Shown here in pieces: positions 32,991-57,745 of a stretch of DNA of 64,000 nucleotides; the stretch's first letter is position 1, and each line of letters starts with the position of its first letter. The translations under genes and the position numbers were made by a program. This stretch comes from a virus: IMG/VR virus record IMGVR_UViG_3300037851_000452, positions 41,846-105,845 of that record. One strand, 5' to 3'. Under the pieces are notes generated by a model. The model worked only from the letters and a program-made list of their open reading frames with translations. It searched no databases and was not told the DNA's origin.

Positions 32991-33851
32991 ATGGCATTTG
33001 TAGACATCAATGAAGTGGCAAACCGTACGGACCTGTTCAAAGAATTCAAGAGCAGGACTCAATGGGACGCGTTCGACTACTATTTTGTAGCTATTCACGT
33101 CCAAGAGATAGCCGGAGGCATACCGAAGAACGCGGACCTCTATAAGAGCTTCGTAGAAGCAAAGTGTAAGGAGAAAGAGGAGACGGAGAGGTCTCGAATC
33201 GTAGAGGCCCGAATCTCCGACCTTCCAACTATCGTGTCTGAGGAGGCAAAGAAGGGCTGGACAGGGTTCCTGTCCGACGAGCGGGGCCTGTACATCGAGG
33301 GCCGTCAAATAAAAGCCCTCTTCAAGGAGGCTGCCAACATCACCCGTGACATCGTCCCGGCAAAGATGTTCAAGAAGAAGACCAAGAAGGGCGCAGAAGC
33401 AGAAGCTGCGTCTATGACAGAGGAAGAGTTCCAGTCCCTGGACAAGGTGACTGGGATCACCAACCTCAAGTCAAAGATCGCGGACCAGATGTTCGTTTTG
33501 AACGGTCTGGTCGTTGAAGACCCTCAGGGGCGCTTCATAAAGACGAACGTCCACCTGGGTAAAACCCAAAGCGACGTTATCGTAGTGGAACAACCCATCC
33601 ACGTCATAACGCCACAAGGGCCAAGGTCGTCCATCAAAATCACTGACCGCGTCAAGGACTGCAACATCTCGTTCACCATACGAGTGTTGCGGAAATCAGA
33701 GATAGTGCCTGACACTATCATGGCTATCCTAGACTACGGTCAGGCGTTGGGGTTGGGGGCCGACAGGTCTCAAGGACTCGGCACCTTTGAAGTAAAGGCC
33801 GTCACCAAAATAAGTAGGGACGAGGCCTACGCCCTCATCCTACAACAGTAA
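32991..33851 (+). CDS. Stand-alone Cas7-like RAMP-superfamily RNA-binding protein
   Basis: beta1 YFVAIHV-EIAGG; GLYIEGRQIKALFKEAA (RAMP YIPxxxIKG-like helix); thumb-like EQPIHVITPQGPRSSIKITD; C-terminal Gly loop GLGADRSQGLGTFEV. Confidence 0.75.
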   Translation: MAFVDINEVANRTDLFKEFKSRTQWDAFDYYFVAIHVQEIAGGIPKNADLYKSFVEAKCKEKEETERSRIVEARISDLPTIVSEEAKKGWTGFLSDERGLYIEGRQIKALFKEAANITRDIVPAKMFKKKTKKGAEAEAASMTEEEFQSLDKVTGITNLKSKIADQMFVLNGLVVEDPQGRFIKTNVHLGKTQSDVIVVEQPIHVITPQGPRSSIKITDRVKDCNISFTIRVLRKSEIVPDTIMAILDYGQALGLGADRSQGLGTFEVKAVTKISRDEAYALILQQ

Positions 33852-33865
33852 TCCAACCTTCTTTT

Positions 33866-33899
33866 AGTAAGGCCCCCGGTATTTCGGGGGCCTACTTTT
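33866..33899 (+). terminator. Intrinsic terminator
   Basis: AGGCCCCCG-GTATTT-CGGGGGCCT then T-tract. Confidence 0.7.
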
Positions 33900-33909
33900 A
33901 GGTAATCAC

Positions 33910-34584
33910 ATGACCCACCTGTACGACTTGTATACGTCGTGCGACGAACGCATGGCCAAAAGGCTAGCCCGCACAACAGTGTCTTGCAAAAAAGGGTGTC
34001 ATGCGTGCTGCAAACAAATAACCATCGTTGCTAAAGCAGAGTCAGACCTGATCGCTAAAAGCCTTGTAGGGTCAAAAATAGACCTAAGAGATCTCATAAA
34101 AAGATTAGAAGAGTCCGCGGTGCTGATGTCACAGCACGACGATATGTTCGACTACTTCTGCCTAGATAAAAGGTGCGCGTTCTTAGACGATAAGAACGAA
34201 TGCATCGTGTACCCTGTAAGACCTGCAGCTTGCAGATACTACTATGTCACCACCTCTCCAGAAGAATGCTCCGAACCTGTTAGGGGGTCTACCATTACAG
34301 TAATCAACACCTCAGACCTGCAAGCCGAAGTATTCTGCTACTGCCTTCAGCTACAAGGAGAGCCTTGGGTAAGCCCGCTACCACTAGCAGTAATGCACTC
34401 CCTATTCCGAATTACTAAAGACGAGGAGTTGGGTACTATACTAAAGAGGCTTCCAGACCCTCAAAGGTGGATGGCTTACAGAATAGAGAACCCCCTAGTT
34501 GGCATGTTGGAAAGTCAGCGCAAAGAATTCAGAAAAGGTCTTATAGGAGCCATCAATGCTTTTGAAAACGAGAGACCTCGCTGA
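33910..34584 (+). CDS. YkgJ-family Fe-S/Zn cysteine-cluster protein
   Basis: CKKGCHACC, CAFL, CIVYPVRPAACR. Confidence 0.8.
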   Translation: MTHLYDLYTSCDERMAKRLARTTVSCKKGCHACCKQITIVAKAESDLIAKSLVGSKIDLRDLIKRLEESAVLMSQHDDMFDYFCLDKRCAFLDDKNECIVYPVRPAACRYYYVTTSPEECSEPVRGSTITVINTSDLQAEVFCYCLQLQGEPWVSPLPLAVMHSLFRITKDEELGTILKRLPDPQRWMAYRIENPLVGMLESQRKEFRKGLIGAINAFENERPR

Positions 34585-34738
34585 GATAGACGACTTTCTC
34601 TTTTCCCAACAGTCCTATCCGGTAAAAGTTCGTATAAAAGACACGGAGCAATCGTTCTCTACGTATGAGGAGTGGGTGAGATTCTTAGAAGTAGTGGATC
34701 TGGACAACCCTGAGTTTATTGCTGGAGAAGAAAACTAG
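34556..34738 (+). CDS. Hypothetical protein
   Basis: 60 aa, GGAG RBS. Confidence 0.45.
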   Translation: MLLKTRDLAEIDDFLFSQQSYPVKVRIKDTEQSFSTYEEWVRFLEVVDLDNPEFIAGEEN

Positions 34739-35224
34739 ATGTCTTACAAGATTCTTGTCCGAGGAGATACGAGTGATGTCAGCGTTACGTTATCAAACAT
34801 CCGCGCCCTGGGAACGGCTTCTGCCAATCCCTTCCCACCAGAGGACGACGTTTGGTGGGTATCTAGAGTTCTAGTTCAGAAAGCCCATCGGGGCAGGGGG
34901 ATAGGAAAGTTTCTGGTTGCTAACCTGGTCAACGCGGTAAGGAAGATGGGGGCAAAGAAGCTTATGGTATGCCCTGGCGGATACGACATCTCCTACGAAG
35001 ACCAGGTTAGGTTTTACGAATCATGCGGGTTCAAAAAGGAATCAGATCACTCGGGCAAGGAAGGCGCTTACTACTTGGACCTGGAAACAGAAGGCACTCC
35101 AAATGAAGTCCCAGACAGATGCAAAGTCTTCCTCTTTAAAGAGATGCAGGAAGAAGACATCCATGACCACGTTCTCCCCTCCCTGGATATTCGAGAACGG
35201 GGTACGGAGACACTCCTATCTTGA
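34739..35224 (+). CDS. GNAT-family N-acetyltransferase
   Basis: VLVQKAHRGRGIGKFLV (motif A), RFYESCGF. Confidence 0.85.
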   Translation: MSYKILVRGDTSDVSVTLSNIRALGTASANPFPPEDDVWWVSRVLVQKAHRGRGIGKFLVANLVNAVRKMGAKKLMVCPGGYDISYEDQVRFYESCGFKKESDHSGKEGAYYLDLETEGTPNEVPDRCKVFLFKEMQEEDIHDHVLPSLDIRERGTETLLS

Positions 35225-35846
35225 TGTGCGGGTTCACGGGTCCCGTCACCGCATAAAAGAAATAAGAACCTATGACCTAGAAGGTTCCGAGAGCCTACGA
35301 TGGAAGATTGCTCTTAGACTGGACCGGGTCCTAAAAGAGTTCCGCAAGGCCCACCAAGATCTGAAAGACGTAGAGAAGGCCCAGTGCATAGTAGACGGAA
35401 GAATGCAGGAGTATCGGTATGACAATGCTACCGGTTGCGTAGAAGAAAAGGATAAGCGACCGGAGAAGAACCCCGTCAACGCCGGCAAGGCCCTCAGATA
35501 CAGAAGAGCGTTTGGGCGTCTGTGTATCTGGAGGAACAGCCTGTCCCTAGCAGAGCACGTTCTTACTCTAGGCATCATGCAAGCCCTTCCCAGCTGGGCT
35601 CGTCATCCAGAAAAAGGACACATAGTCGTCCTGACAATAAACGGCAGGGACTACACCTACTTGTCTATAAAAAACCGGCACGGTGTGCCATGCCTAGAGC
35701 CACTACACTACCCAACTCCAGAAGAACCAAAAGCCGTGTCTAGATATGTGATTGATTTTAAAGGCATCCTAGACGAGGCAATGACCCGGACATTAGACTC
35801 TCCCCAAAGAGACGAGCCCAGGGTGACTAGAGAGCCGGCAGACTAG
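35103..35846 (+). CDS. Hypothetical protein
   Basis: 247 aa ORF; start uncertain. Confidence 0.5.
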   Translation: MKSQTDAKSSSLKRCRKKTSMTTFSPPWIFENGVRRHSYLDVRVHGSRHRIKEIRTYDLEGSESLRWKIALRLDRVLKEFRKAHQDLKDVEKAQCIVDGRMQEYRYDNATGCVEEKDKRPEKNPVNAGKALRYRRAFGRLCIWRNSLSLAEHVLTLGIMQALPSWARHPEKGHIVVLTINGRDYTYLSIKNRHGVPCLEPLHYPTPEEPKAVSRYVIDFKGILDEAMTRTLDSPQRDEPRVTREPAD

Positions 35847-37479: not shown

Positions 37480-37713
37480 ATGGCCGCCAGGCACGTGATG
37501 GTGCATTTCACCGTCTACAACAAGCCTCGAGACTATCCTGACGAGGTCGTTGTTCGTAGGTGGTTCATAGAACCAGGCAAACCTGTCATCGACCCCGTGA
37601 TCTGGAAGATAGCGAAGACCCTAGAGGAGGCTCGTCGGAGCATACCTCCAGACAAACATAACATCGGGCGAATGCCCAGCGACGACCCATGCATTGTTGA
37701 GACATGGGTTTAG
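37480..37713 (+). CDS. Hypothetical phage protein
   Basis: AGGAG RBS; VYNKPRDYP...DDPCIVETW. Confidence 0.6.
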   Translation: MAARHVMVHFTVYNKPRDYPDEVVVRRWFIEPGKPVIDPVIWKIAKTLEEARRSIPPDKHNIGRMPSDDPCIVETWV

Positions 37714-37720
37714 GAAAAAC

Positions 37721-38539
37721 ATGCTTCTACAATTTACTCTTAGGTGCAACGAAGAATGCTCTCATTGCCTAGTAGATGCTGGTAAGAACCGAGACGAGTT
37801 CATAGACGAAAGGACCATTGAGCGGGTCATTTCGTACCTTAACCGGCTGGGGCCTATTCCCGTGCTAATAACGGGAGGAGAGGTCACGCTACACCCCAGA
37901 TGGTTGGAGTTCTCTAAGAAGCTAGTCAAAGAGACCAACAGCGTTTTTATGGTCTTGAGCAACGGGTCCTGGGTAGAGGACGAAGAGATACAAAACGGCG
38001 TAAGGGAGCTCTTGGACCTCAAAAAGGTTATAGGGATGCAGGTTACCTCTTTCGAGAAGTACTACCCGAACTACCAGCGCATGGTTCGTCTTCAAGACAA
38101 GCTCAAAGAAGTCCACTCGAAAATAGGGCTGGTTCTAGGAGAAAAAAGCCACTGCCTAACCCCGCTAGGAAGAGCAGCAGGGATGAAACCTGAAGGAAAA
38201 CAGTTCTCTGGGTGCTCTAACTTTCTACTAGTGTGCCGTCAAGTAGACACCTGGTATAGCGCGCACTGGGAGCTCGCCAAGGCGCAAAAATTGTGCGTCC
38301 CCGTAATAGACACGCATGGAGACATACGAATCGGTGAGACCCAGCATTGCACCAAAATAGGCGACGTAGACGATAGCAACCACGATCTGTTCAACCGGGC
38401 CCTAAAACTGGAGCCTTGCGGAAAGTGCGGTCTTAGGTCCCCTTTTTCCAGGAGTGACGAATGCTCAGACTTGTTTCAGTCGTTGTTGCAGCCGTTCTCT
38501 GCTCGTGCACAGCGGAAGATCGAAGCATCCAAGCCCTAA
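37721..38539 (+). CDS. Radical SAM protein with C-terminal Cys cluster (SPASM-like)
   Basis: CNEECSHC, ITGGE, LSNG. Confidence 0.85.
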   Translation: MLLQFTLRCNEECSHCLVDAGKNRDEFIDERTIERVISYLNRLGPIPVLITGGEVTLHPRWLEFSKKLVKETNSVFMVLSNGSWVEDEEIQNGVRELLDLKKVIGMQVTSFEKYYPNYQRMVRLQDKLKEVHSKIGLVLGEKSHCLTPLGRAAGMKPEGKQFSGCSNFLLVCRQVDTWYSAHWELAKAQKLCVPVIDTHGDIRIGETQHCTKIGDVDDSNHDLFNRALKLEPCGKCGLRSPFSRSDECSDLFQSLLQPFSARAQRKIEASKP

Positions 38540-38771: not shown

Positions 38772-40358
38772 ATGCAGAACTACACGGAGCACTTTGGCGG
38801 CAAGAACGCGAAGCAGGGAGAGGTCATTCCTGGAAAGGAAAAGAACATGACCTTGAACTCCTGCAACAACTACGTGTTCCGTGTCGGTCCCTGGAACAGG
38901 CTGGAGCGTTTCCTGGTCTTGGGGTCGGACAAGAACACCTACTACGCTTCGGCCAAGAAGCTGACCAGGGAGAATGCGGCAGTTATCGAAGAGCTTATCC
39001 GGGTGGACAACCGCCGGCTCGTCGATACCATTGTTCGTATCTCTGATGAAGGCCGGGCTCCCAACAACGACCCGGCCCTGTTTGCCCTGGCCATGGCTAC
39101 GGTGTTTGGTGACAAGTCTATGGCCATGGATGCCCTTCCCAAGGTTGCGCGTATCGGAACGCACCTGCTCCACTACTTGGAGTACACCAAGGGTCTGGGA
39201 GTTCTTTGGAGACGTACCTTCCGAAAGGGCGTTGCCAATTGGTTCAACGGTAAGGACGTTGGAAACTTGGCCTACCAGGCCATCAAGTACAAATCCCGCG
39301 ATGGCTGGTCCATGCGAGACGCTCTTCGTCTGTCGCATCCCAGTCCCAAAGAGGACGTCGCTCGAGATGCCCTCTATCACTGGATTGTCAAAGGGGTCCT
39401 CAAGGAAGGGATCCCGGACCAGGTAGCGGCGGCGGCCGAGGTCATGTCTCTTGGTACTAAGGACATCAGCAGGTCGGCGGAGCTGATCGTAAAACACCGA
39501 CTTCCTCGAGAGGCTCTGCCTACAGAGCTGCTGTCGGATGCTCGGATATGGGACGCCCTGCTTAAAGGGATGCCTTTGGGGGCCCTGGTCCGTAACCTGG
39601 GAAAGATGTCCAGTTTGGGCATGTTGAATCCGTTTTCCGAAACGTCCAAGGAGATTTGCCGCCGACTTACGGCAGAAGAAGAGATCAAGAAGTCCAGACT
39701 TCATCCTGTTGCCCTGCTGTCCGCTCTACGAGTGTACAAGCAAGGTCGTGGAGATAAGGGATCTCTTAGTTGGTCCGTAAACAACATGGTCTCTAGTGCT
39801 CTAGAAGACGCGTTCTACCTGTCGTTCAAGACCATTGTTCCGACAGGAAAGAACATTGGCCTGTTCCTAGACGTATCTGGGTCTATGGAAGGCGGAGAGA
39901 CAGCTGCTGGTCTGAGCCCCAGAGAGGCATCGGCGGTGTTGGCCATGGTTACGGCTCGCAGCGAGCCCAACTATGAGTGCTGGGCATTTTCCAGTGGCAT
40001 TGTGCCGTTCAAGCTAAGCAAGTCCTCGTCTTTGAAGGAGACGGTAGACGCTATGCGCGCTCTCCCGTTTTCATCTACGGACTGCTCGCTGCCCATGACC
40101 ATGGCAACGAAAAGCAAGATACCGCTGGATGCCTTTATCGTATACACGGACTGTGAGACCAACCATTCCGGCTCACTGCATCCGTCTCGAGCGCTGCAGG
40201 TCTTCCGTCAAAAGATGGGCCGACCAGCTAAGCTGATTGTGGCCGGAATGGTGTCTAATGGGTTCAGCATTGCGGACCCCGAAGACGGTGGTATGCTGGA
40301 CGTGGTGGGGTTTGATTCTTCTGCCCCGTCCGTCATGGCGGACTTCGTAAGAGATTGA
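38772..40358 (+). CDS. rsr: Ro60/TROVE-domain RNA-binding protein (Rsr)
   Basis: RLERFLVLGS..TYY, KYKSRDGWSMRDALRLSHP, RNLGKM, SRLHP; vWA domain LDVSGSM, TDCSLPM, VYTDCET, MLDVVGFD. Confidence 0.95.
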   Translation: MQNYTEHFGGKNAKQGEVIPGKEKNMTLNSCNNYVFRVGPWNRLERFLVLGSDKNTYYASAKKLTRENAAVIEELIRVDNRRLVDTIVRISDEGRAPNNDPALFALAMATVFGDKSMAMDALPKVARIGTHLLHYLEYTKGLGVLWRRTFRKGVANWFNGKDVGNLAYQAIKYKSRDGWSMRDALRLSHPSPKEDVARDALYHWIVKGVLKEGIPDQVAAAAEVMSLGTKDISRSAELIVKHRLPREALPTELLSDARIWDALLKGMPLGALVRNLGKMSSLGMLNPFSETSKEICRRLTAEEEIKKSRLHPVALLSALRVYKQGRGDKGSLSWSVNNMVSSALEDAFYLSFKTIVPTGKNIGLFLDVSGSMEGGETAAGLSPREASAVLAMVTARSEPNYECWAFSSGIVPFKLSKSSSLKETVDAMRALPFSSTDCSLPMTMATKSKIPLDAFIVYTDCETNHSGSLHPSRALQVFRQKMGRPAKLIVAGMVSNGFSIADPEDGGMLDVVGFDSSAPSVMADFVRD

Positions 40359-44928: not shown

Positions 44929-44990
44929 GACTGTACGTACCCAAACTCGCCAAGCCAGACCAACCACAACGCAGACCTGCCGGAACCTAC
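44929..44990 (+). repeat. Pentamer-periodic (NNCNN) array, short
   Basis: GACTG TACGT ACCCA AACTC GCCAA GCCAG ACCAA. Confidence 0.6.
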
Positions 44991-46973: not shown

Positions 46974-47108
46974 GACAAACCAAACCTAATGACTACTCGA
47001 GTCTACCCATGTCATCTCAGGCCAAGTCTTTTCGTTACGAACGACGACTCGCCCCGACCCCTGTCGTAGTTACCGGCCCGCCTCGACTACCCATCACATG
47101 GCGGCACA
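46974..47108 (+). repeat. Pentamer-periodic (NNCNN) array
   Basis: GACAA ACCAA ACCTA AT / GACTA CTCGA GTCTA CCCAT GTCAT CTCAG GCCAA GTCTT TTCGT TACGA AC / GACGA CTCGC CCCGA CCCCT GTCGT. Confidence 0.8.
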
Positions 47109-47781
47109 CTTCAACCCGACTGACCAGACGACTTCAAACGGTCTTGGAGGTAACGTGTTTAGAAGTATGTGTAGTGTTATCCCCGCAGGGTCTTGCGGAG
47201 TAGCAAAAGTAGTCCACGCCACGGTATCTAAAGAGGATGCTGAGCTAGACAGACTACAAGGACGACTACGCGGGCATGCCCCAGTAAGAGAGGGGCCTCT
47301 GTGTATGCTGTACGTCAAAAACGAGCTAATGATGTCCGACGGACCTAACGAGCATAGAACCAACTACGACGTGGTGGTTAAGTCTTTCGGAGATGTCCTA
47401 ATAGCCGGACTGGGTCTAGGAATGATAGTCGTACCTATCCTGAAAAAGCCTGTCGTAACGTCCGTAACCGTTATTGAGAAGTACAAGGACGTGGATGACC
47501 TAGTCACCCCGCACGTTCTTAAAGAAGCAGGTAGCAGCGCTGATAAGCTAAAAGTTATAGTAGACGATATCTACAACTGGGATCCACCAAAAGAAGCGAA
47601 GTACGACGTCATCTACTTCGACATATGGGCTTCTCAAAGCACAGACGACCTTGCGGGAATAACCCGGCTCAAAAGAAGATTTGCTAGTCGTCTAAAAAAA
47701 GGAGGATACCAGGCCGCGTGGAGAGAGAAAGAGCTTCGTGCTAGTAGGAGGCGTGAGGTAAGAGAGAAGCCTTGGTTCTAG
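47098..47781 (+). CDS. Class I SAM-dependent methyltransferase (spermidine-synthase-like)
   Basis: VLIAGLGLG, VTVIEK, YDVIYFDIW; true start may be a GTG/ATG after the GGAGG near 47146. Confidence 0.75.
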   Translation: MAAHFNPTDQTTSNGLGGNVFRSMCSVIPAGSCGVAKVVHATVSKEDAELDRLQGRLRGHAPVREGPLCMLYVKNELMMSDGPNEHRTNYDVVVKSFGDVLIAGLGLGMIVVPILKKPVVTSVTVIEKYKDVDDLVTPHVLKEAGSSADKLKVIVDDIYNWDPPKEAKYDVIYFDIWASQSTDDLAGITRLKRRFASRLKKGGYQAAWREKELRASRRREVREKPWF

Positions 47782-48372: not shown

Positions 48373-48700
48373 GACAAGCCTACCCGGCCCTTCCCGACCC
48401 CGAACTGGCCGCGTAACACGAGTCAAGCCGACGTGACATGACGACCCAAGATCAACGCGACCCGACAGACAAACCAAACTCATTGACTATACGTCCCCGC
48501 CCCTGCCCAGACATTGGACAAGCCACCACGGCCCTACCCACGGCATCGAGACTTGGGTATTCTAAAGGTGCGCCGAGGACGCTTCTTTTGACCGTAATCA
48601 ACCAGCTCAGGTCCTTGTGGATGGAACTCTGCCTCGGCGCACTTTTAATAAGACAACCCTCTTGACTACACATGCCGTGACGATGCACCCCTGCTCGGCC
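48373..48700 (+). repeat. Pentamer-periodic array interrupted by a hairpin RNA
   Basis: GACTA TACGT CCCCG CCCCT GCCCA GACAT TG / GACAA GCCAC CACGG CCCTA CCCAC GGCAT; followed by a GGCCTG/CAGGCC hairpin and T-tract. Confidence 0.75.
48558..48650 (+). ncRNA. Rod-like RNA with a degenerate SRP-domain-IV-like core
   Basis: 15-bp stem AAAGGTGCGCCGAGG/CCTCGGCGCACTTTT enclosing AACCAGCTCAGGTCC-TTGT-GGA. Confidence 0.35.
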
Positions 48701-49517: not shown

Positions 49518-49940
49518 ATGACGGTGAGCGCTATTCTTCTGTCTCTTTTCCTGAACACCCCCACGGACCCGTGCGGTATCGGATGTGTGTCTCGTTCCGG
49601 AAATCTCTTCACCGGATATTCGTATTCGGTAGAAGGCGGTGAGTCCCTATCAGAGGGAGACATTACCTGGGCGTTTGCCCGGTATCCTCTGCTCGACGAG
49701 CGGTTGAAACTGCATCAGACCGTTTGGGGAGTTCAGCTAGGCATTTCCATTGTCGGTGTATCGGCGTCTGGATACTACGTCTGGAAGGCCACGAACTCCA
49801 ACTACCGAAAGAACATGGACCGTGTCTATGCGATAGCCGGAACGTCACTAATCCTAAACGTGGCGTTGGGGTTGTTTCGCAACTACGTCTATGGTTCTTT
49901 GGGAGACGAGTACAATGTGCTCCTAGGGCAAGAGCAATAG
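49518..49940 (+). CDS. Membrane protein
   Basis: Signal peptide plus two transmembrane segments. Confidence 0.55.
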   Translation: MTVSAILLSLFLNTPTDPCGIGCVSRSGNLFTGYSYSVEGGESLSEGDITWAFARYPLLDERLKLHQTVWGVQLGISIVGVSASGYYVWKATNSNYRKNMDRVYAIAGTSLILNVALGLFRNYVYGSLGDEYNVLLGQEQ

Positions 49941-50072
49941 ACGAGCCACCGCATCACGATCAGTAACGAGCCCTAAAAGGAACAAACCAAACCAGCAGAC
50001 AAGCCGTTTTGGCCCACTCCATCCCAAAAGACGAGACATGTCGAGTCAAGACGTGTCACGAGACGTTACAAC
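49940..50072 (+). repeat. Pentamer-periodic array
   Basis: GACAA GCCGT TTTGG CCCAC TCCAT CCCAA AA / GACGA GACAT GTCGA GTCAA GACGT GTCAC GA (32-nt units). Confidence 0.75.
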
Positions 50073-50087
50073 TTAAAGGAGAAAGAT

Positions 50088-50267: not shown

Positions 50268-50280
50268 TAACAACACCAAC

Positions 50281-50314: not shown

Positions 50315-50324
50315 AGGAGAACAC

Positions 50325-50663: not shown

Positions 50664-50951
50664 ATGCTGGAAGAAAAAACTCTAGAAACAGCCCAAAAAT
50701 GCCTTGCCCTGCGAAAGAGAAAGAACGCATCCAAAATCCTGTTTCGTAGTATTGGATACCACTCAGCGGTTTCCGAATACGAGGGCGCACTCAAAGATCT
50801 CTGCGAGACTAAAGAAGTGTCTCCCGTGGTCAGGAAGATTGGCAGCCTCTTTGGAGGCTGTGAGAACAAAAAAGAGTTCGAGCAGTGTGGTCAAATACTA
50901 GACATGCTCTACGAGCACTTTTCTTCATATATCAGGAACCTAGTCAGCTAA
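50664..50951 (+). CDS. Hypothetical protein
   Basis: AGGA RBS. Confidence 0.5.
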   Translation: MLEEKTLETAQKCLALRKRKNASKILFRSIGYHSAVSEYEGALKDLCETKEVSPVVRKIGSLFGGCENKKEFEQCGQILDMLYEHFSSYIRNLVS

Positions 50952-51047
50952 GAGTCTTGTTTACTCGGAGGTTACTACCATCGAGCATTCCGTTCCGACT
51001 GGCCTCTATGGTAGTAACCTCTCAGTCTAAAAACAAAAAGGAATCAC

Positions 51048-51473
51048 ATGCCGCGCGTAGCTCTTATTACGGAGGAAAGGGTCATTCAGGAGCTCTCCTC
51101 CTTCCCTAAGCACAACAAGAACACCGCTGGTTTCTGCCTAAAAAGCCAAACAGTGTGTTGGACAAACGGCGCCGTGGCGGTTCGGTGGAATCGAACTCAG
51201 AACTCGCATAATCTTCTGGCAGGACAAGAAGTCTTCGAGATGGATTTCGATAAGCTACTTCCGCAAGAAGACGAGCCGACGTCCTCCGTAGGACTGGACG
51301 TGTATATGACGTATAAGATTCTTAAGATCGTTGGAGCTCAAAGGGGCTTCATCTACCACGTGGGGAGTAACTACATCGTTAGGGTAGAGCCAGCCTGGGA
51401 GATAGACGGGCAAAGCGTAGTTCAAGAAGTAGACGTCGTCGTGGCCGGGATCGTCCACGATCCAGGTCATTAG
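51048..51473 (+). CDS. Hypothetical protein, weakly beta-clamp-like
   Basis: WTNGAVAV, DFDKLLP, VGLDVY. Confidence 0.45.
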   Translation: MPRVALITEERVIQELSSFPKHNKNTAGFCLKSQTVCWTNGAVAVRWNRTQNSHNLLAGQEVFEMDFDKLLPQEDEPTSSVGLDVYMTYKILKIVGAQRGFIYHVGSNYIVRVEPAWEIDGQSVVQEVDVVVAGIVHDPGH

Positions 51474-51523
51474 AAGGTAAAAGTTTTTACCTTACCCAAC
51501 TGCTCGAAAGTAGGTAGTTTTTC

Positions 51524-51757
51524 ATGCCAGAGCAAGAAAGCCTGTTCGACAGAATCGAGGCCTTGAAGTCAGCCGGTCAGATAAGCGATAGAGGTGACCA
51601 GGAAGCTGCCCTGAACGCCCTATCGCATGTTAGGGAGATGGTTCGTAGTCTGTCCCAAGAGCTGGACAGCATTCACGAGTATCTGAGCAGCAGGGAGCTT
51701 ACCAAGCAAGAAGTAGTTGTGATTAACGAGCTGGTAGAAGACCTGTTGGGGCTATGA
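51524..51757 (+). CDS. Hypothetical protein
   Basis: 77 aa helical ORF. Confidence 0.5.
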   Translation: MPEQESLFDRIEALKSAGQISDRGDQEAALNALSHVREMVRSLSQELDSIHEYLSSRELTKQEVVVINELVEDLLGL

Positions 51758-51972
51758 CCGAAGAAAGAACGTGCGACCCTGATTGCTGGTGCCACCTATG
51801 CCAGCGCGCGGCTCAGCAGTTGTGTGAGCCGAAGACAAACCAATCCACTACTAGAGAAAGAGTTAGCGTGTCCAAGCGGATTCGGGATAGCTGGAGCTCT
51901 ACCTGTCTTGCTCTCTCTTCAACGGTTAAGCAGCTCTGGAAAGAGATAGACAGCCTAGGAGAGGATCCATAA
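51754..51972 (+). CDS. Hypothetical protein
   Basis: ATGA-coupled; CDPDCWCHLC. Confidence 0.45.
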   Translation: MTEERTCDPDCWCHLCQRAAQQLCEPKTNQSTTRERVSVSKRIRDSWSSTCLALSSTVKQLWKEIDSLGEDP

Positions 51973-52210
51973 GACAAAGCGAGCCATCCCGGAACATCCA
52001 AGACGCCCCATATGGACACCACACGACAAGCCATCCACACTCAAACGACTACTCATTTCTCCCCAACTGCGTCCCTCCCCATTAGACAACCCCTCTCACT
52101 ACGCCACGCCGCTACCCCATCCGTCAGACACCCCCGACCCGAACGCTGCTGACCTGGTCGAATAGACTACACATGGCGCCCCGTAACCCCGCATTCCTCA
52201 ATGACCCGCC
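51973..52210 (+). repeat. Pentamer-periodic array
   Basis: 52085: GACAA CCCCT CTCAC TACGC CACGC CGCTA CCCCA TCCGT CA (8/8 C3); followed by a GGTGGGGAGG/CCTCCCCACC hairpin. Confidence 0.8.
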
Positions 52211-52242
52211 TGGTGGGGAGGTTATTCCTCCCCACCTAATCA

Positions 52243-52271
52243 GAAATTCTTTCTTAGGTTTTAGGTATAAG
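52243..52271 (+). promoter_or_regulatory. Phage promoter GAAAT-N16-GGTATAAG
   Basis: Motif copy. Confidence 0.6.
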
Positions 52272-52308
52272 AATGTTGGTAATCTACAACATTACTTAGG
52301 GGTAAAAG

Positions 52309-52686
52309 ATGCATGAGATGAGTGAGATGAGCGAGTGCGTTGACGCGGTACGCGGCTTGTACAACGACACGCACTCGGAAGCGGACGATGCCCGTAACGC
52401 GATGCGGAAGGCCGTAGAGGCTGCCGAGAAGGCAGAGACCTTCGCCAACCTGTCAGAAGAGCTCTACCAGCAAAGGAAGCCCTCTCCGATAGAGAGTTCT
52501 TTGGCCGCTTTTCTTACCGCGGCCACCGATCTGATGTCCCAGTTGGGACCAGTGGTGGTGGAGAAAGTGGAGTGGAGCCGCCCAACCCAAAAGGTGTGGA
52601 AAGAGCTGCTCTCGTCTCTACCAGAAGACAAAGAGAGGCGCTGTGAGGCTCTGGTAGAACTTCTTGAAAAGCTACAGTGGAAGTAG
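52309..52686 (+). CDS. Hypothetical protein
   Basis: 125 aa after the promoter. Confidence 0.55.
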   Translation: MHEMSEMSECVDAVRGLYNDTHSEADDARNAMRKAVEAAEKAETFANLSEELYQQRKPSPIESSLAAFLTAATDLMSQLGPVVVEKVEWSRPTQKVWKELLSSLPEDKERRCEALVELLEKLQWK

Positions 52687-52696
52687 CCAAAAAAGT

Positions 52697-52725
52697 GCAA
52701 TAATCCGCCTTTTTCTAGGTATAAG
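52697..52725 (+). promoter_or_regulatory. Phage promoter GCAAT-N16-GGTATAAG
   Basis: Motif copy. Confidence 0.6.
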
Positions 52726-52746
52726 AATCTGGAAAGGAGGTGGGTT

Positions 52747-52995
52747 ATGGTGACTCACCGAATCCCGGCCGAGATCGGCCGTGTCCTCGGTCTTCGGACC
52801 GGGGACACGGCCCATATCGCGCGCTGCCGTAACGAATACGGCACGCCGTATAGGACGTTGGTCTCCCGCTCGCCCATCGAGCGGGAGACGTTCTCCCTCG
52901 GCGCGTCCATCGACGCGTCGAAGCTCGTCGAGGTGGAGCTCGACGAGCACCTCCCCGCCTACGGGGAGGTTTGGGATCAGTGGGGAACCACTTGA
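52747..52995 (+). CDS. Hypothetical protein (single-gene cassette)
   Basis: AAAGGAGGT RBS; followed by a GGAGTGGTATGGCT/AGCCATACCACTCC hairpin. Confidence 0.6.
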   Translation: MVTHRIPAEIGRVLGLRTGDTAHIARCRNEYGTPYRTLVSRSPIERETFSLGASIDASKLVEVELDEHLPAYGEVWDQWGTT

Positions 52996-53098
52996 TCCCA
53001 AACAGGAGTGGTATGGCTAGAACAGCCATACCACTCCGATTATTAGCCCAGGAGGACCTGTGGCCTACAAAACCACTAGATTCGCCAAGGAGAATTAG

Positions 53099-53959
53099 AT
53101 GAAGAGCTCCATCTGCTTTTACCACGCCGCTGATAATGACGGCACGCTGTCTGGATACATAGTAACAAAAAAACTCCTCCATAGGGGAAAAGCGTTCCAC
53201 CGAGTAGGGGTCAACTATGGGGACCCAATACCTGAACCACTACTCTCCCCAGGTACCTTCGACCAGGTGTTCATAGTGGACTTCTCGTGGAAACGAGACG
53301 AGATGGCCAAAATAGCAAAGAACAGCCATCTGATATGGATTGACCACCATAGAACGGCCATTACCGACTACCGAGACAACCCTTTCGCATGCACCACGGT
53401 GCTTGATGAAACGCGGGCCGCGTGCGAGCTGACGTGGGGGTTTTTATGGCCCGAAATAGAGACACCGAAAATTGTTCAGGCAGTAGGAGCCTGGGATATC
53501 AAAAGATGGAAAGATATCTCGGAGAAAGAAGCTACTGCCTCCCATTTTGCCATCAAAAAGGTTGGGCCAGCATGCGGCCCCGACTGGGAGTATTTTCTCG
53601 ACCCAAACAACTGGAACAGCATTCAAGAGACCGGAGAGCTCATCTCTGAATGGGTCGAGTCAGAAAACAAGAGAAGGTCTAGCCAGGCCCACCGCGTTTT
53701 TTGGGAAGGAAGATTCTGGATGGTTCAACTTGGTACGCCAGTACCCGTAGAAACAATGTGGGAACACTGTCCAGGAAACTACTCGGGCCTCATAGGCGTC
53801 AACTTCATCAAGGACTCTTGGGTAATCTCTCTGCGTCGGATTCCTGGAGAGTCTATGGACCTAGGACTGATTGCCAAAAAGTATGGGGGCGGAGGTCATC
53901 CTGCCGCAGCGGGATTCCGAATGTCCGAACTCCCCAGTGAGCTGTTCAAGCCTGTGTGA
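53099..53959 (+). CDS. DHH/DHHA1 phosphoesterase (NrnB/oligoribonuclease-like)
   Basis: YHAADNDG, IVDFS, WIDHH, SLR, YGGGGHPAAAGF. Confidence 0.88.
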   Translation: MKSSICFYHAADNDGTLSGYIVTKKLLHRGKAFHRVGVNYGDPIPEPLLSPGTFDQVFIVDFSWKRDEMAKIAKNSHLIWIDHHRTAITDYRDNPFACTTVLDETRAACELTWGFLWPEIETPKIVQAVGAWDIKRWKDISEKEATASHFAIKKVGPACGPDWEYFLDPNNWNSIQETGELISEWVESENKRRSSQAHRVFWEGRFWMVQLGTPVPVETMWEHCPGNYSGLIGVNFIKDSWVISLRRIPGESMDLGLIAKKYGGGGHPAAAGFRMSELPSELFKPV

Positions 53960-53977
53960 GGCAACGGCCAGCCAAAA

Positions 53978-54173
53978 GACAAACCGAACTCGACCCTTCC
54001 GACTGACAGAACACACCACTTCGGTTCACGACAGTCCTCGACACATCAAAAGACGAGTCTCGACGTTCCAATACGACCCAATACGAATAGACTGGCCAAG
54101 ACTTCGCAAGACCTGACACGCCGAAAAGACAAGTAGACTCTTCTGCCCTTGCCGCCCCAAGCCCGTAATGACG
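53978..54173 (+). repeat. Pentamer-periodic array
   Basis: 54052 GACGA GTCTC GACGT TCCAA TACGA CCCAA TACGA ATA / 54090 GACTG GCCAA GACTT CGCAA GACCT GACAC GCCGA AAA (38-nt units). Confidence 0.8.
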
Positions 54174-54221
54174 TAATGTCCGGGTCATTACATAGCGACC
54201 CGGACATTACAAGGAGGATTC

Positions 54222-54698
54222 ATGCTACGCACAGCTTACGACGTCGTTGGAGATGTTTTAAGGGACTATGTCTCGGAAGCGACAGAGAACCAAATCTTCC
54301 ATCAACTAGAGTACCTAAGACCAACTTTCATTGCCGGCAAGTACGTTCTAAAAGACCTAGGCGACTTCTACGACACCGATGAGGGGTGGAACGGACGTGC
54401 CTTCTTCTTGGGGCCTTTTGCCAATAAAGAACCGGAGCTGATTCCAAAGATACAGCTTGCCCTCCGATTCTTTATCGACGACCAGGTACGTGACCTAAGA
54501 ATACGTACGGCCGCCGCTATGCGAAAGATGTTATCCCTTAAGATTCCCCCCACCTCCCTGTGGCTCAACCAGAAAGAACACTACCCCGTTGAAAAAGACC
54601 TTCTAGGCCTACAGGTAAAATACCACTCCGAAAAAGAAGAGTTCGTAGCGTCATTGGAGTACGGGCGCATAGTCCTTCTTGAACAACCAGGAACCTAA
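54222..54698 (+). CDS. Hypothetical protein
   Basis: AAGGAGG RBS directly after a palindrome copy. Confidence 0.6.
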   Translation: MLRTAYDVVGDVLRDYVSEATENQIFHQLEYLRPTFIAGKYVLKDLGDFYDTDEGWNGRAFFLGPFANKEPELIPKIQLALRFFIDDQVRDLRIRTAAAMRKMLSLKIPPTSLWLNQKEHYPVEKDLLGLQVKYHSEKEEFVASLEYGRIVLLEQPGT

Positions 54699-54721
54699 TC
54701 GGCTCCCAGTGGAGACCACAC

Positions 54722-55090
54722 ATGTACTTTAAAAAAGAGGTCGAAGAGCTAATGGAAGCCGTAGGAGGTCTTGATAGAATCCTCAATCGCTATTTCAAAG
54801 CGATACAAAGAGTCCAAAATGACTTAGAAGAGACCGAGTTCCGAGAGGAGGTGTCGGTAGACCTAAACGAGCATAACTTCCAGCTCAGCTGGGCGACCCA
54901 TAAGGGAGAGTGGAAAATACTCTACAAAGATTCTACGTCCAAAGACGCGTACCCGCTCCTGAACGCTGAATGCGACGTCCAGGCCAAGGCCGCAAGGCAC
55001 GTAAGACTGCTCATTAAAGAGATGGCCAAACGCGTCAGAGAAAAGTCAGAGCGGTTGAATGCCCTCGGGACTGAGGATGAGCTTCTATAA
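54722..55090 (+). CDS. Hypothetical protein (paralogue of next)
   Basis: LSW...EWKI...LL...AARHV.LL. Confidence 0.55.
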   Translation: MYFKKEVEELMEAVGGLDRILNRYFKAIQRVQNDLEETEFREEVSVDLNEHNFQLSWATHKGEWKILYKDSTSKDAYPLLNAECDVQAKAARHVRLLIKEMAKRVREKSERLNALGTEDELL

Positions 55091-55095
55091 ACAAC

Positions 55096-55488
55096 ATGGA
55101 ACCGCATAGGTTCCTAGTAGGAAGTACCATGTCTCTGAATGAAGACCTTGAGTCACTTAAGAAGGCAACGAAAGAACTCCAGACGTTCTATCAGAAAGTG
55201 GATAAGGAGATTGGTGACTTAGAAGAAGCCATCCGCTATATCAACCCCGGAGTAGCGGCTTCAGTAGATACCGATGAGAGCTTTAGCATAGGATGGAGTT
55301 TCGACAGTAACCGCGGATGGAGAATAACTTTCCTCCAAAGCGGCTATAACGAGACCAACCTTCTGTCTAAGGATGAGTTGACCAAGATACGGGCCATTCG
55401 ACACCTACCCAAACTGGTCAAGCAGTTGACGGCTAACGTTAAGTTGCGACTGCTAGAGGCCGTAAACTGCCTACAAGGTCTTCTTTAA
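55096..55488 (+). CDS. Hypothetical protein (paralogue of previous)
   Basis: IGW...GWRI...LL...AIRHL.KL. Confidence 0.55.
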   Translation: MEPHRFLVGSTMSLNEDLESLKKATKELQTFYQKVDKEIGDLEEAIRYINPGVAASVDTDESFSIGWSFDSNRGWRITFLQSGYNETNLLSKDELTKIRAIRHLPKLVKQLTANVKLRLLEAVNCLQGLL

Positions 55489-55504
55489 TACGGAGCGGTA
55501 CCCC

Positions 55505-55750
55505 ATGCCTATCAGATTCACGGACGAGGTTGTCGTATCGTACGGAAAGATCTTGTTCAGAGAGAAAAGGGAGGAAGAATCCATCGAGGAGTACAGAAAG
55601 GCTCTTGCGGACGACCAAGAGTCTAAGGACGTGATTCAAGCCCACGAAATACGAACGGGCAAACCCTGGGATGAGTGGGGACCGGAAGAGTTTAACTACC
55701 GGAGGTTTTACAATATGGCATCTATCTCGAAATTGGACATCCCAAAGTAG
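55505..55750 (+). CDS. Hypothetical protein
   Basis: GGAG RBS. Confidence 0.5.
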   Translation: MPIRFTDEVVVSYGKILFREKREEESIEEYRKALADDQESKDVIQAHEIRTGKPWDEWGPEEFNYRRFYNMASISKLDIPK

Positions 55751-55762
55751 GGAGAACCCCTT

Positions 55763-56059
55763 ATGACCATTCAAGTAGACGGTGTAAGCGAGCCTGTTAA
55801 CTACAACGTCAAGCCGGCCGATATCAGAGAGCCGGATATGGGCGCAAAGGCAGTCACCAAGGAACATCTGGCTGCTCTAGACGCGCAGCTAGACTTGGTT
55901 GCTGTGTCTCTTCAAGAAAGAAACCAGCGCTCGATGTGCGTTAACGGCTGTGGAGAGCCTGTGTGCCCGCCGAGCAAGGTTATCTGCAGAAAGTGCCAGG
56001 ACAGAATAACCAATATTCTCATGGCCTTGGCTAATGACCCGGACATTAGGAATGACTAG
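55763..56059 (+). CDS. Zn-finger hypothetical protein
   Basis: CVNGC...CRKC. Confidence 0.5.
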   Translation: MTIQVDGVSEPVNYNVKPADIREPDMGAKAVTKEHLAALDAQLDLVAVSLQERNQRSMCVNGCGEPVCPPSKVICRKCQDRITNILMALANDPDIRND

Positions 56060-56603
56060 CGACGAGTCTGGACATGCCACGACGTCTTGAACCGAGACGT
56101 AGACAAACCAATTTGACAAGACGAGACGTCATACGGCATTTCAACCCCTGTAGACGATGCGTCCCGAGACTGGCCAAGACGATACGGGCCCGTTTACAGA
56201 AACCGGGTCGTAATGACCTGGACATTGACAAACCAACGCAAGTGACAAGCCGAAGCGAGACGCCCTCAGCCTATCCTTTTCGCCGGACGCTACGTGCCAG
56301 AAGCTTCCCGCCCCCTTAAGACAATACGTGACCGCACGCCATAGCTCCAACCGTCTAGACTATCCTGGCCCCCCCGTAACCTGCCTTAACGTTAGACGTC
56401 CCTAGACGATCTGTCTCGTCTCAGACCCCACCGACTATCCTGGCCACATCGAGACTAACCACCCCAAACGACCTGCCGCGAAGGCCGCCCCCTCCCGTGA
56501 TGACTAGCCATCCCAAGACATCCCAAGACACCACCACCGGACATCACAGACCCCGTCCCGCCGCGTCCGTTACACTCTGACTTCCCGCCACGATTCCTTA
56601 CGC
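56054..56603 (+). repeat. Longest pentamer-periodic array (about 550 nt)
   Basis: e.g. 56358 GACTA TCCTG GCCCC CCCGT AACCT GCCTT AACGT TA (37 nt); GACTA GCCAT CCCAA GACAT CCCAA GACAC CACCA. Confidence 0.82.
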
Positions 56604-56604
56604 G

Positions 56605-56633
56605 AACAAATCACAAAGGCCTTTAGGTATAAG
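56605..56633 (+). promoter_or_regulatory. Phage promoter AACAA-N16-GGTATAAG
   Basis: Motif copy followed by an AGAGCTCAGGC/GCCTGAGCTCT leader hairpin. Confidence 0.55.
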
Positions 56634-56694
56634 TAGTGTGAAGAGGAAGAGCTCAGGCAATATCGCCTGAGCTCTAACCTCAAAGGAGGACAGG

Positions 56695-56859
56695 ATGAGA
56701 AAATGGATTCTCCTCCTGGCCATAACAATAGCAATAAACATCCCCTGCGGAGTCTACCTGCTTTCGGTAGGTAGGCTGTGGGGGGCAATAACAATAGGAT
56801 GCGCCATGATGGGAATGCTGTTCCTGGCCTTTGTGGTCAGGGAGGTAAGGAATGGTTGA
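56695..56859 (+). CDS. Small two-TM membrane protein (54 aa)
   Basis: AAAGGAGG RBS; MRKWILLLAITIAINIPCGVYLLSVG...; terminator at 56863-56884. Confidence 0.6.
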   Translation: MRKWILLLAITIAINIPCGVYLLSVGRLWGAITIGCAMMGMLFLAFVVREVRNG

Positions 56860-56909
56860 AGTAAGGGCGGAGTACCGCCCTTTCTCTTAACACGCAAGCA
56901 GGAGCTCTC

Positions 56910-57065
56910 GTGTGGGACGTTCTACAACTCGTAGGCACTGTCTTAAGTGTCCTTTGCGGTATCTACCTTCTGGCTACAGGTAATCTACTGCTCGGGATAC
57001 CACTTCTACTGTGGACAGGAATCGCTGTCCTTATCGTAATGACCCGGACATTAGAAAGGAGGTAA
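56910..57065 (+). CDS. Small two-TM membrane protein (51 aa)
   Basis: AGGAG RBS, GTG start; VLCGIYLLATG resembles the previous ORF. Confidence 0.5.
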   Translation: MWDVLQLVGTVLSVLCGIYLLATGNLLLGIPLLLWTGIAVLIVMTRTLERR

Positions 57066-57067
57066 GT

Positions 57068-57382
57068 ATGGAGAATCTCTTCAATGTTTTAGGCGACCTT
57101 ATGGCAAAGGATAAGGCCGCTGGCCTTGTTTACTACTCTCTAGACGAGAACAACCAGCCTGTCCCTTGTAGTAGGCCTGCGATACAGCCGTTGAAGCAGA
57201 CGAAAGTAGGGGACAGGGTAGTTTCTACCGTCTTCTTGAGCATCAACCATGCTTTCGATGACGGCCCACCGGTGTTGTGGGAGACGATGGTCTTTCCGGA
57301 AGGGGATTGCCGTCGATACACTACGCACAAAGACGCCCTAGAAGGGCATGAAGAGCTCGTAAGGGCTCTTCAAGGCGATTAG
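57068..57382 (+). CDS. Hypothetical phage protein
   Basis: AAAGGAGGT RBS; VSTVFLSINH...PVLWETMVF...RYTT...ALEGH. Confidence 0.65.
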   Translation: MENLFNVLGDLMAKDKAAGLVYYSLDENNQPVPCSRPAIQPLKQTKVGDRVVSTVFLSINHAFDDGPPVLWETMVFPEGDCRRYTTHKDALEGHEELVRALQGD

Positions 57383-57745
57383 ACGTGTCAGCTCGCGACG
57401 ACCGCGGCTCAACGCACGTCTGGACAAACCAAAGCATTGTGACAAGCCATCTCGAAACAGTCCCATTGACTATACGGGCCCTGCCGACCCCACACTACCC
57501 CGATAGACGAACCCTCCCACTACGTGCAGATCTATCCCTATGACAAACCATTAGACATTCCGGCACGTGACGCCCCTCACCCCGTCCCATAAGACTGGCC
57601 AGGTCTTCCCGACACCGCTCGTGGCCCCCCGACTCATCCTGACTGACCACCCCGCCGCAATACAGCTCGCCCCCAATGACTACCCGTCACGCCCCACTCC
57701 TGCCCTACTCGATAGACAATACATTCTCTGTCGAACCTACCCACC
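57382..57745 (+). repeat. Pentamer-periodic array ending at a terminator
   Basis: 57641 GACTG ACCAC CCCGC CGCAA TACAG CTCGC CCCCA AT / 57678 GACTA CCCGT CACGC CCCAC TCCTG CCCTA CTCGA TA. Confidence 0.82.

What the first reader, a model, noticed from the sequence alone, without database searches (positions are those of the whole stretch)
32991..57745. Candidate non-CRISPR RNA-guided system: solo Cas7-like RAMP plus dispersed 5-nt-periodic guide-like arrays
Seen: a 286-aa ORF with RAMP/Cas7 hallmarks, its own promoter and terminator, and no recognisable cas1/2/3/5/6 or CRISPR array in the window. Seen: at least eight intergenic arrays (44929, 46974, 48373, 49940, 51973, 53978, 56054, 57382) of GAC-headed units in which every fifth base is C while the other positions vary. 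Established: Cas7 backbones bind guide RNA in fixed-length steps and flip out one base per subunit (6 nt in type I/III). Inference: each unit is a guide coated by one subunit per pentamer, with C as anchor and the variable bases specifying a possibly gapped target, for example to silence host defence genes or rival phages. From memory and unverified, phage RAMP systems with GGY/NN pentamer RNAs (VIPR) have been reported. This would be a variant with a looser NNC/NN code and scattered arrays. The common GCC/ACC triplets are the reverse complement of GGY, so the expressed strand must be established.
Basis: partly seen in the sequence, partly recalled or inferred. Interest (0 to 1): 0.95.

Follow-up and report, generated by a model that had tools for sequence, protein, structure and literature searches.

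The report
Phage VIPR system with scattered guides
This phage fragment carries a divergent copy of VIPR, a CRISPR-like RNA-guided DNA-silencing system first published in 2026: one Cas7-like gene plus about 37 short guide units written in five-base steps and scattered over eight gaps between genes; it is real, but it belongs to a known kind.

Summary

VIPR systems are already published (bioRxiv 10.64898/2026.04.26.720920, .720927, 2026.10.15.759431, 2026.10.21.760802), including non-GGY repeats, staggered arrays, solo guides and anti-vipr guides. This scan has also met VIPR on other DNA, once with cytosine-phased guides.

Added here:
- In 80 viral loci with a homologue, C-phased arrays sit on the gene's strand (1304 runs against 443 expected). 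G-phased runs are at chance.
- Relatives' guides obey the published one-base-skip rule. They hit conserved motifs of rival vipr genes and a cytosine methyltransferase, starting at the GAC head.
- The C-phased strand is the sense strand of a partner-array-vipr operon in 17 loci, so the RNA probably carries C, not G.
- This window is unusual in layout. Its arrays lie 11-24 kb from the gene, whereas 50 of 63 relatives with arrays have one within 300 nt.

No target was found for this phage's own guides. Verdict: new member of a known kind, moderate interest.

The parts
32991..33851 (+). vipr-like gene (P0001, 286 aa): stand-alone Cas7-type RAMP with a C-terminal G-loop (GLGADRSQGLG)
33871..33899 (+). 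intrinsic terminator-like hairpin plus T-run just after the vipr-like gene
   Evidence: Read directly.
44929..44963 (+). array 1: one GAC-headed unit of 7 pentamers, just after the stop of ORF 44526-44927 and upstream of ORF 45032
46974..47119 (+). array 2: short conserved unit GACAAACCAAAC, then units at 46991-47040 (10 pentamers), 47043-47067 and 47085-47119. The last one runs into the called start of ORF 47098.
48373..48698 (+). array 3: units at 48373-48412, 48430-48449, 48485-48514 and 48517-48546, with the short conserved unit at 48468. A long hairpin with T-run lies at about 48570-48645, followed by one more unit at 48664-48698.
49940..50059 (+). array 4: units at 49940-49959 and 50030-50059, with a variant of the short conserved unit at 49981
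51973..52199 (+). array 5: six units (51973, 52015, 52047, 52085, 52127, 52165), followed by a hairpin and the TAGGTATAAG motif at 52262
53978..54165 (+). array 6: variant of the short conserved unit at 53978, then units at 54005-54049 (9 pentamers), 54052-54086, 54090-54124 and 54136-54165
56054..56603 (+). array 7: about ten units (56061, 56153, 56244, 56320, 56358, 56433, 56502, 56540, 56579 and others). This is the most C-rich gap (C 43%).
57382..57712 (+). array 8: eight units (57382, 57441, 57468, 57506, 57554, 57593, 57641, 57678)
57750..57770 (+). intrinsic terminator-like hairpin plus T-run closing array 8 on the + strand

Best explanation
This is a divergent member of the VIPR family.

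The gene at 32991-33851 encodes a Vipr-type RAMP. By homology with SUSP1 Vipr, it should polymerise along a guide RNA with one protomer per five bases. It would hold three bases of each pentamer and present the two free bases (NN) to double-stranded DNA, reading the target as NN-skip-NN-skip. That makes it blind to codon third positions, and binding represses transcription.

The roughly 37 GAC-headed units in eight intergenic gaps at 44.9-57.8 kb are its guides. Each specifies 14-20 target bases.

I take the + strand to be the expressed strand. The guides would then be C-phased RNAs (x-x-C/NN) cut out of the + strand transcripts that also carry the neighbouring small genes. GAC marks the 5' end of each guide. 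The one fixed base, a pyrimidine, would sit where SUSP1 Vipr holds Y3.

Shown: the fold, the homology, the periodicity, the co-occurrence, the skip-1 targeting in relatives, and the sense orientation in relatives' operons. Inferred: the filament, processing at GAC, repression as the outcome, and the targets of this phage's own guides (probably rival phages or their vipr genes).
For: - Fold and G-loop.
- Homology to the SUSP1 Vipr family (PDB 36pp): hhalign 92.7%, E 4e-7, 130 columns.
- The period-5 C signal is well above local-composition shuffles and concentrated in 12% of the contig. GAC heads number 37, against 1-6 for other triplets.
- Co-occurrence: in 80 IMG/VR loci with a homologue there are 1304 C-phased runs on the gene strand against 443 expected. 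G-phased runs are 353 against 364. Arrays occur in 63 of 67 non-redundant loci. They also follow the gene in the cultured Microcystis phage Mae-JY09.
- Guide behaviour in the clade: exact 8-dinucleotide seeds give 34 guide-locus pairs at skip 1, against 5, 6 and 3 at skips 0, 2 and 3, and 2-15 for shuffled dinucleotide order.
- Three guides (L054, L020, L126) hit conserved motifs of rival RAMP genes and one (L038) hits a C5-methyltransferase motif. In each case the skipped base falls on the wobble position, and the match starts at the NN right after GAC and runs 8-10 NN.
- Strand: in 17 of 19 loci of one subclade the array fills the space between a co-oriented partner gene (gap 3-12 nt in most) and the RAMP start codon (11-50 nt in most).
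- Strand, in this window: arrays lie between + stop codons and + RBSs or terminators.
- G-loop alignment: the SUSP1 residues that read G1 and G2 (D177, W178) are A257 and D258 here, while R179, which holds Y3, is kept as invariant R259.
Against: - No target was found for any of the 27 parsed window guides. The places searched were the contig, within 2.5 kb of each guide, 3.4 Mb of related loci, 195 RAMP homologues at codon level, exact scans of IMG/VR and one scan of GTDB genomes. Hits were at random level.
- At family level only about four guides carry the skip-1 signal. The number of guides with any hit (14) is no higher than in shuffles (2-14).
- No vap partner was found. The neighbours have no relative beside other homologues, and the two partner families seen in relatives are absent from this contig.
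- There is no conserved 3' tail or pseudoknot.
- The nearest array is 11 kb from the gene, whereas 50 of 63 relatives with arrays have one within 300 nt.
- The published systems, and SUSP1 as read here, are G-phased on the vipr strand. The G-loop residue alignment rests on a distant profile match.
- Nothing here shows transcription, processing or binding.
Confidence: 0.65

Rival explanations
1. It is the same VIPR system, but the functional guides are G-phased RNAs made from the - strand. This would be the 'NNNNG' repeat class named in the VIPR paper, with each guide ending in GTC.
For: - All published vrRNAs are written G-first. SUSP1 vrRNAs are G-phased.
- Read on the - strand, the pentamer is G, then G/T, then C/G, then NN. 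That is the same order as GGY/NN.
- The defined end (GAC on +) would then be the 3' end, as with the SUSP1 tail. The loosely matched end would be 5', as in SUSP1.
Against: - Every one of eight scattered arrays here would need its own antisense promoter.
- In 17 relatives a promoter would have to sit inside the vipr gene or its RBS.
- Arrays are C-phased on the gene strand across the loci, with no excess of G-phased runs.
- The Asp that reads G1 in SUSP1 aligns to an invariant Ala here.
- A second preprint lists C-ending cores (GAC/NN, CAC/NN) among non-canonical VIPR arrays.
Confidence: 0.2
2. The arrays are not trans-acting guides. They are cis elements in the phage's own transcripts that the RAMP coats to control processing, stability or translation of neighbouring genes. 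The NN positions vary only because the protein does not touch them.
For: - The arrays sit inside + strand intergenic spacers next to RBSs.
- No target was found for any window guide.
- The short unit GACAAACCAAAC is conserved across the clade on the gene strand, with a strand count of 16 to 1. It is too short to be a guide.
Against: - In relatives, units match conserved coding motifs of other phages at 17/18, 18/20, 20/22 and 19/20 positions under the one-base-skip rule, in codon register. Neutral drift would not produce this.
- The homologous SUSP1 system is shown by experiment to be a trans guide system.
Confidence: 0.08
3. The RAMP is an anti-CRISPR decoy subunit that poisons host Cascade or Csm, and the C-periodic tracts are unrelated leader or promoter sequences.
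For: It is a solo Cas7-like protein in a phage with no other cas genes. An earlier first-reader note raised this idea.
Against: Gene and arrays co-occur tightly and on a fixed strand across 63 of 67 loci. The protein is homologous to Vipr. The targeting signal in relatives argues the same way.
Confidence: 0.02

Closest known systems
Type II VIPR of Escherichia phage SUSP1 (Vipr, vap1, four vrRNAs; PDB 36pp; bioRxiv 10.64898/2026.04.26.720920 and .720927)
   Same: - A stand-alone small RAMP with helix-1, thumb and G-loop, homologous by profile comparison.
- Phage-borne, with no CRISPR array or other cas genes.
- Guides built of five-base units with two free bases.
- The one-base-skip, wobble-blind target rule holds in this clade.
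   Different: - SUSP1 has a strict GGY core, G-phased on the vipr strand, about 100-nt vrRNAs each with a 3' pseudoknot tail, one upstream and three downstream of vipr-vap1.
- Here only one base per pentamer is fixed, and it is C on the gene strand.
- Units are 20-52 nt, head-to-tail, opened by GAC, with no tail.
- No vap was found.
- The arrays lie 11-24 kb away in eight gaps.
- The protein is 286 aa against 195, with insertions. The G1/G2 contact residues are not conserved.
Non-canonical VIPR repeats and 'staggered' arrays (NNNGG, YNNNG, NNNNG in 10.64898/2026.04.26.720920; GAC/NN, CAC/NN, WGT/NN clusters in 10.64898/2026.10.21.760802)
   Same: The cores are degenerate or not GGY, next to Vipr-like folds. 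Units abut or overlap by one base, as in the relatives read here.
   Different: The figures and tables of those papers are not held here. I therefore cannot tell whether this clade is one of their types, or whether they assign it a strand. In this clade GAC is a unit head, not the repeated core.
Solo or orphan vrRNAs and anti-vipr guides in SUSP1-family phages and F5 satellites (10.64898/2026.10.15.759431)
   Same: Guides lie away from any vipr gene. Some guides are aimed at rivals' vipr genes (here for relatives).
   Different: Those are 1-2 canonical GGY vrRNAs left at a deleted vipr locus. Here a vipr-positive phage spreads about 37 units over eight intergenic gaps among small genes.
Cas7 backbone subunits of type III and type VII CRISPR effectors (Csm3, Cmr4, Cas7 of type VII)
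   Different: They read 6-nt steps on crRNAs from CRISPR arrays, together with Cas10/Cas5/Cas11 or Cas14 partners. None of these partners is present here.

Membership tests
VIPR (Vipr + vrRNA) | Sequence homology to described Vipr proteins | tested here: met
   Profile of 47 homologues against a profile of 30 SUSP1-type proteins: hhalign probability 92.7%, E 4e-7, 130 columns spanning helix-1 to the G-loop. The single-sequence comparison was not significant.
VIPR (Vipr + vrRNA) | Non-CRISPR context: no CRISPR array, no cas1/cas2 or other effector genes | tested here: met
   No CRISPR-like repeats. The contig has no Cas1 and no Pfam RAMP hit beyond this gene. The contig is about 55% complete.
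VIPR (Vipr + vrRNA) | Tandem five-base repeats with constrained triplet and hypervariable NN, associated with the gene | tested here: met
   The period-5 signal is significant. NN positions are near-uniform. The association holds across 63 of 67 loci. Here the arrays are 11-24 kb from the gene, not adjacent.
VIPR (Vipr + vrRNA) | GGY core of the repeat (canonical consensus) | tested here: not met
   The core is [G/C][A/C]C on the gene strand, or G[G/T][C/G] on the other. The papers allow 'a related consensus', so this fails only the canonical form.
VIPR (Vipr + vrRNA) | Invariant structured 3' tail after the repeat tract (type II) | tested here: not met
   Units follow one another with 0-8 nt linkers and no shared tail. 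The only shared elements are the GAC head and the short unit GACAAACCAAAC. Tail-less 'staggered' arrays are mentioned in the paper.
VIPR (Vipr + vrRNA) | Targets read by the one-base-skip rule, with the skip on codon wobble positions | tested here: inconclusive
   Met for relatives of the clade. No target was found for this window's own guides.
VIPR (Vipr + vrRNA) | Accessory vap gene beside vipr | tested here: inconclusive
   The neighbours (a CxxCxxCC protein, a GNAT and unknowns) have no relatives beside other homologues. The two partner families seen in relatives are absent from this half-genome.
VIPR (Vipr + vrRNA) | vrRNAs expressed and bound by the protein; DNA binding and repression | not testable with these tools
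   Needs RNA-seq, pull-down and reporter assays.
CRISPR-Cas type III / VII effector | Cas7 encoded with Cas10/Cas5/Cas11 (or Cas14) and a CRISPR array | tested here: not met
   There is one RAMP only, no array and no Cas1. Sequence hits to cas models are marginal, E about 6e-4.

The most novel reading that the evidence does not exclude
This Vipr clade uses a pyrimidine-anchored code. The guide RNA is the C-phased sense strand (x-x-C/NN). The single fixed C sits in the pocket that holds Y3 in SUSP1 Vipr, and the two guanine-reading contacts have been lost.

Guides have no tails. They are cut at GAC heads out of ordinary mRNAs. This lets a phage scatter dozens of guides through the spacers of an operon instead of keeping them in a dedicated array beside the gene.
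Probability: 0.45. Interest if true: 0.55.

Novelty: new member of a known kind. Interest (0 to 1): 0.38.

Why it matters
VIPR is a months-old class, and only its type II has been studied in depth.

This window and its 160 related loci describe a large, distant clade: 805 protein clusters at 50% identity, from uncultured phages and Actinomycetota genomes (probably prophages) to a cultured Microcystis phage. In this clade the repeat keeps only one fixed base, the guides are tail-less and opened by GAC, and the fixed base is C on the sense strand.

If the RNA really is C-phased, the protein family can change which bases it locks away while keeping the two-base, one-skip reading of DNA. That matters both for the evolution of RAMPs and for engineering.

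The scattered layout also shows that searches limited to the neighbourhood of vipr will undercount guides.

For this phage itself the practical meaning is ordinary. It probably silences rival mobile elements that have not been sampled.

Tried and rejected
- **Chance or composition:** rejected by block shuffles. A looser 7-of-8 count was not discriminating (46 clusters against 42). Perfect runs were.
- **Second 286-aa ORF at 53099-53959 as a paralogue:** no. It is a DHH phosphoesterase.
- **Pfam and PHROGs on the protein:** nothing useful.
- **Megablast of 20 kb against GenBank phages:** no match.
- **The look-up of encoding contigs:** The first metagenome scan with the single protein found nothing.
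- **Terminators flanking arrays as a strand test:** uninformative (4 against 12 of 116).
- **Ribozymes between units as a strand marker:** none in eight loci.
- **Self-targets, and 'recoded copy next to the guide' (a lead from another window):** not found.
- **Window guides against related loci, RAMP proteins at codon level, IMG/VR and GTDB exact scans:** only random-level hits. Seven IMG/VR hits collapse to three independent sequences not in a shared gene. Three GTDB hits are AT-rich non-coding DNA.
- **Skip-4 signal in the family test:** a poly-C artefact.
- **Relatives search for host:** not available for a virus record.


Full report
**1. The observation**

The window is the last 64 kb of a 105,845-bp IMG/VR virus record. 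The record is linear and CheckV rates it about 55% complete.

ORF 32991-33851 (+) gives a 286-aa protein. It has an RBS, and a hairpin plus T-run follows it at 33871-33899. Pfam and PHROGs say nothing about it. PADLOC gives marginal hits to Cas7, Csm4 and Cas6 models.

There is no CRISPR-like repeat and no Cas1 or second RAMP in the contig.

**2. The arrays**

All eight listed positions show a C every fifth base on the + strand.

- A loose count (7 of 8) did not beat local-composition shuffles, but perfect runs do. Runs of 7 or more number 24 against 5.3 +/- 2.2, and runs of 8 or more number 12 against 1.5. There is no excess for A, G or T.
- Of the contig's 26 such runs, 22 lie in 44.9-57.8 kb.
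- The pentamer is [G/C][A/C, rarely G][C][N][N], with the last two positions near-uniform.
- GAC opens 37 runs of at least four pentamers, against 1-6 for other NNC triplets.
- Units are 20-52 nt and separated by 0-8 nt.
- A short unit, GACAAACCAAAC, recurs six times in the arrays, on the + strand only.

**3. What is known**

VIPR systems were described in 2026: a Vipr RAMP plus vrRNAs of 9-16 YNNGG repeats and a 3' tail.

- The NN pairs read double-stranded DNA with one base skipped, usually the codon wobble base. Binding represses transcription.
- Natural targets are satellites, prophages and other VIPR systems.
- Seven types are named, with alternative repeats (NNNGG, YNNNG, NNNNG), staggered arrays and ribozyme-spaced arrays.
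- The cryo-EM paper shows one protomer per repeat. G1 is read by H17 and D177, G2 by R138 and W178, and Y3 sits in a pocket with R179.
- Later preprints add solo vrRNAs, anti-vipr guides and non-canonical cores such as GAC/NN and CAC/NN.
- This scan has met VIPR in many other genomes, once with 'cytosine-phased' guides.

**4. Is this protein a Vipr?**

I fetched SUSP1. Its vipr is at 28474-29061 (-), and its product is identical to PDB 36pp. A single-sequence comparison is not significant.

A profile of 30 SUSP1-type proteins does match the profile of this family, at 92.7% probability and E 4e-7 over 130 columns, from helix-1 through the thumb to the G-loop. In that alignment D177 corresponds to A257 and W178 to D258. 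R179 is kept as the invariant R259.

**5. Do gene and arrays go together?**

- In 80 IMG/VR loci oriented on the homologue, runs of 7 or more period-5 C number 1304 against 443 in shuffles. G runs number 353 against 364.
- Arrays occur in 63 of 67 non-redundant loci. They lie within 300 nt of the gene in 50 of them and more than 2 kb away in one.
- They are long head-to-tail series of GAC-headed units, up to 3 kb.
- The cultured Microcystis phage Mae-JY09 has the same layout.
- Seventeen GTDB genomes, mostly Actinomycetota, carry distant homologues.

The window is atypical only in layout. Its nearest array is 11 kb from the gene, and the units are spread over eight gaps.

**6. Are the units guides?**

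I took 1155 complex units of at least 8 pentamers from 152 non-redundant sequences. I then searched 1.85 Mb of sequence (both strands), outside arrays and outside each unit's own locus, for exact matches of eight consecutive NN.

- Skip 1 gave 34 guide-locus pairs. Skips 0, 2 and 3 gave 5, 6 and 3. Shuffled NN order at skip 1 gave 2-15.
- A skip-4 signal was a poly-C artefact.
- The excess comes from a few guides that hit many homologous genes.
  - One guide in L054 matches the N-terminal PKVAEGWLK motif of rival RAMP genes at 17/18.
  - One in L020 matches the LAERVFVEE motif at 18/20.
  - One in L126 matches GINQRFVHT.
  - One in L038 matches the C5-methyltransferase motif NAADYGVPQTR at 20/22.
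- In each case the skipped base falls on the wobble position.
- In every case the match begins at the NN right after GAC and runs 8-10 NN.

This is a small number of independent events, but it is what the published rule predicts.

For the window's own 27 parsed guides I found nothing above controls. The places searched were:

- the contig;
- next to each guide;
- related loci;
- RAMP homologues at codon level;
- four IMG/VR exact scans and one GTDB exact scan.

**7. Which strand?**

SUSP1 vrRNAs are G-phased on the vipr strand. This clade is C-phased on the gene strand.

Three lines of evidence favour a C-phased sense RNA.

- In 17 of 19 loci of one subclade, the array fills the space between a conserved co-oriented partner gene and the RAMP start codon. 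The gaps are mostly 3-12 nt and 11-50 nt. In L021 the RBS overlaps the last unit.
- In the window, arrays lie between + stop codons and + RBSs or terminators, next to + strand tRNA genes.
- The guanine-reading residues are not conserved, whereas the residue at the pyrimidine pocket is.

Against this, every published vrRNA is G-first, and on the - strand the order G, G/T, C/G, NN resembles GGY/NN. Terminator counts and a ribozyme search did not help. I put the + strand at about three to one.

**8. Verdict**

What is particular here:

- a distant Vipr clade with one fixed base per pentamer;
- tail-less units opened by GAC;
- probable C-phased RNA;
- a scattered layout;
- no vap gene found.

I file it as a new member of a known kind, with moderate interest.

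Noticed in passing
window 38772-40358 (+), with 40802-40823 and 42972-42993: A phage-encoded Ro60 orthologue (TROVE plus Ro60 vWA domains, E 1e-57). tRNA-like T-arm sequences lie nearby that ARAGORN and Rfam do not call as tRNAs. They may be Y-RNA-like partners with a tRNA-like module.
   Followed up: partly
window 28931-29202 (+): A group I intron (Rfam RF00028, 88.9 bits) overlaps the 3' end of an HNH endonuclease-like ORF at 28402-29136.
   Followed up: no
window 32066, 35776, 46170, 54171, 54190, 56029, 56208, 57034, 59343, 59406 and others: A 17-nt motif, TAATGACCCGGACATTA, occurs in about ten copies in both orientations. It often sits 8-10 nt upstream of an RBS, and at 54171-54208 two inverted copies lie together. 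It may be a phage regulatory or processing site.
   Followed up: no
window 46974, 48468, 49981, 51834, 53978, 57423; also L002, L005, L010 and 11 more loci: The short unit GACAAACCAAAC is conserved across phages whose RAMPs are only 25-40% identical. It lies almost always on the gene strand (16 copies against 1). It is too short to be a guide, so it may be a leader, a nucleation site or a processing signal.
   Followed up: partly
window 44000-59000: Sigma-70-like promoters are depleted: 2 found against 10.5 +/- 3.4 expected. The motif TAGGTATAAG occurs exactly three times on the + strand (52262, 52716, 56624), just upstream of genes, so the phage may use its own promoter type.
   Followed up: no
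L191 (Microcystis phage Mae-JY09, PP395641.1, 37713-38900): A cultured cyanophage carries the same clade of RAMP gene, annotated as hypothetical. It is followed at once by about ten GAC-headed C-phased units, which makes it a ready experimental model.
   Followed up: partly
L021, L022, L025, L027, L036, L045, L054, L064, L075, L079 and others: A conserved gene of about 180-280 aa with no Pfam match lies upstream of the array and the RAMP gene in 21 loci, and a second family does so in 12 loci. These are candidate accessory (vap-like) genes of this clade. Neither has a relative in this contig.
   Followed up: partly
window 45809-45916 (+): A 54-nt tandem duplication (83% identity) lies inside ORF 45403-46161.
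   Followed up: no
window 33910-34584, 34739-35224, 37694-38539: The genes downstream of the RAMP gene encode a CxxCxxCC zinc/iron-chelating domain protein, a GNAT acetyltransferase and a radical SAM protein. None of them is linked to the RAMP gene in other loci.
   Followed up: partly
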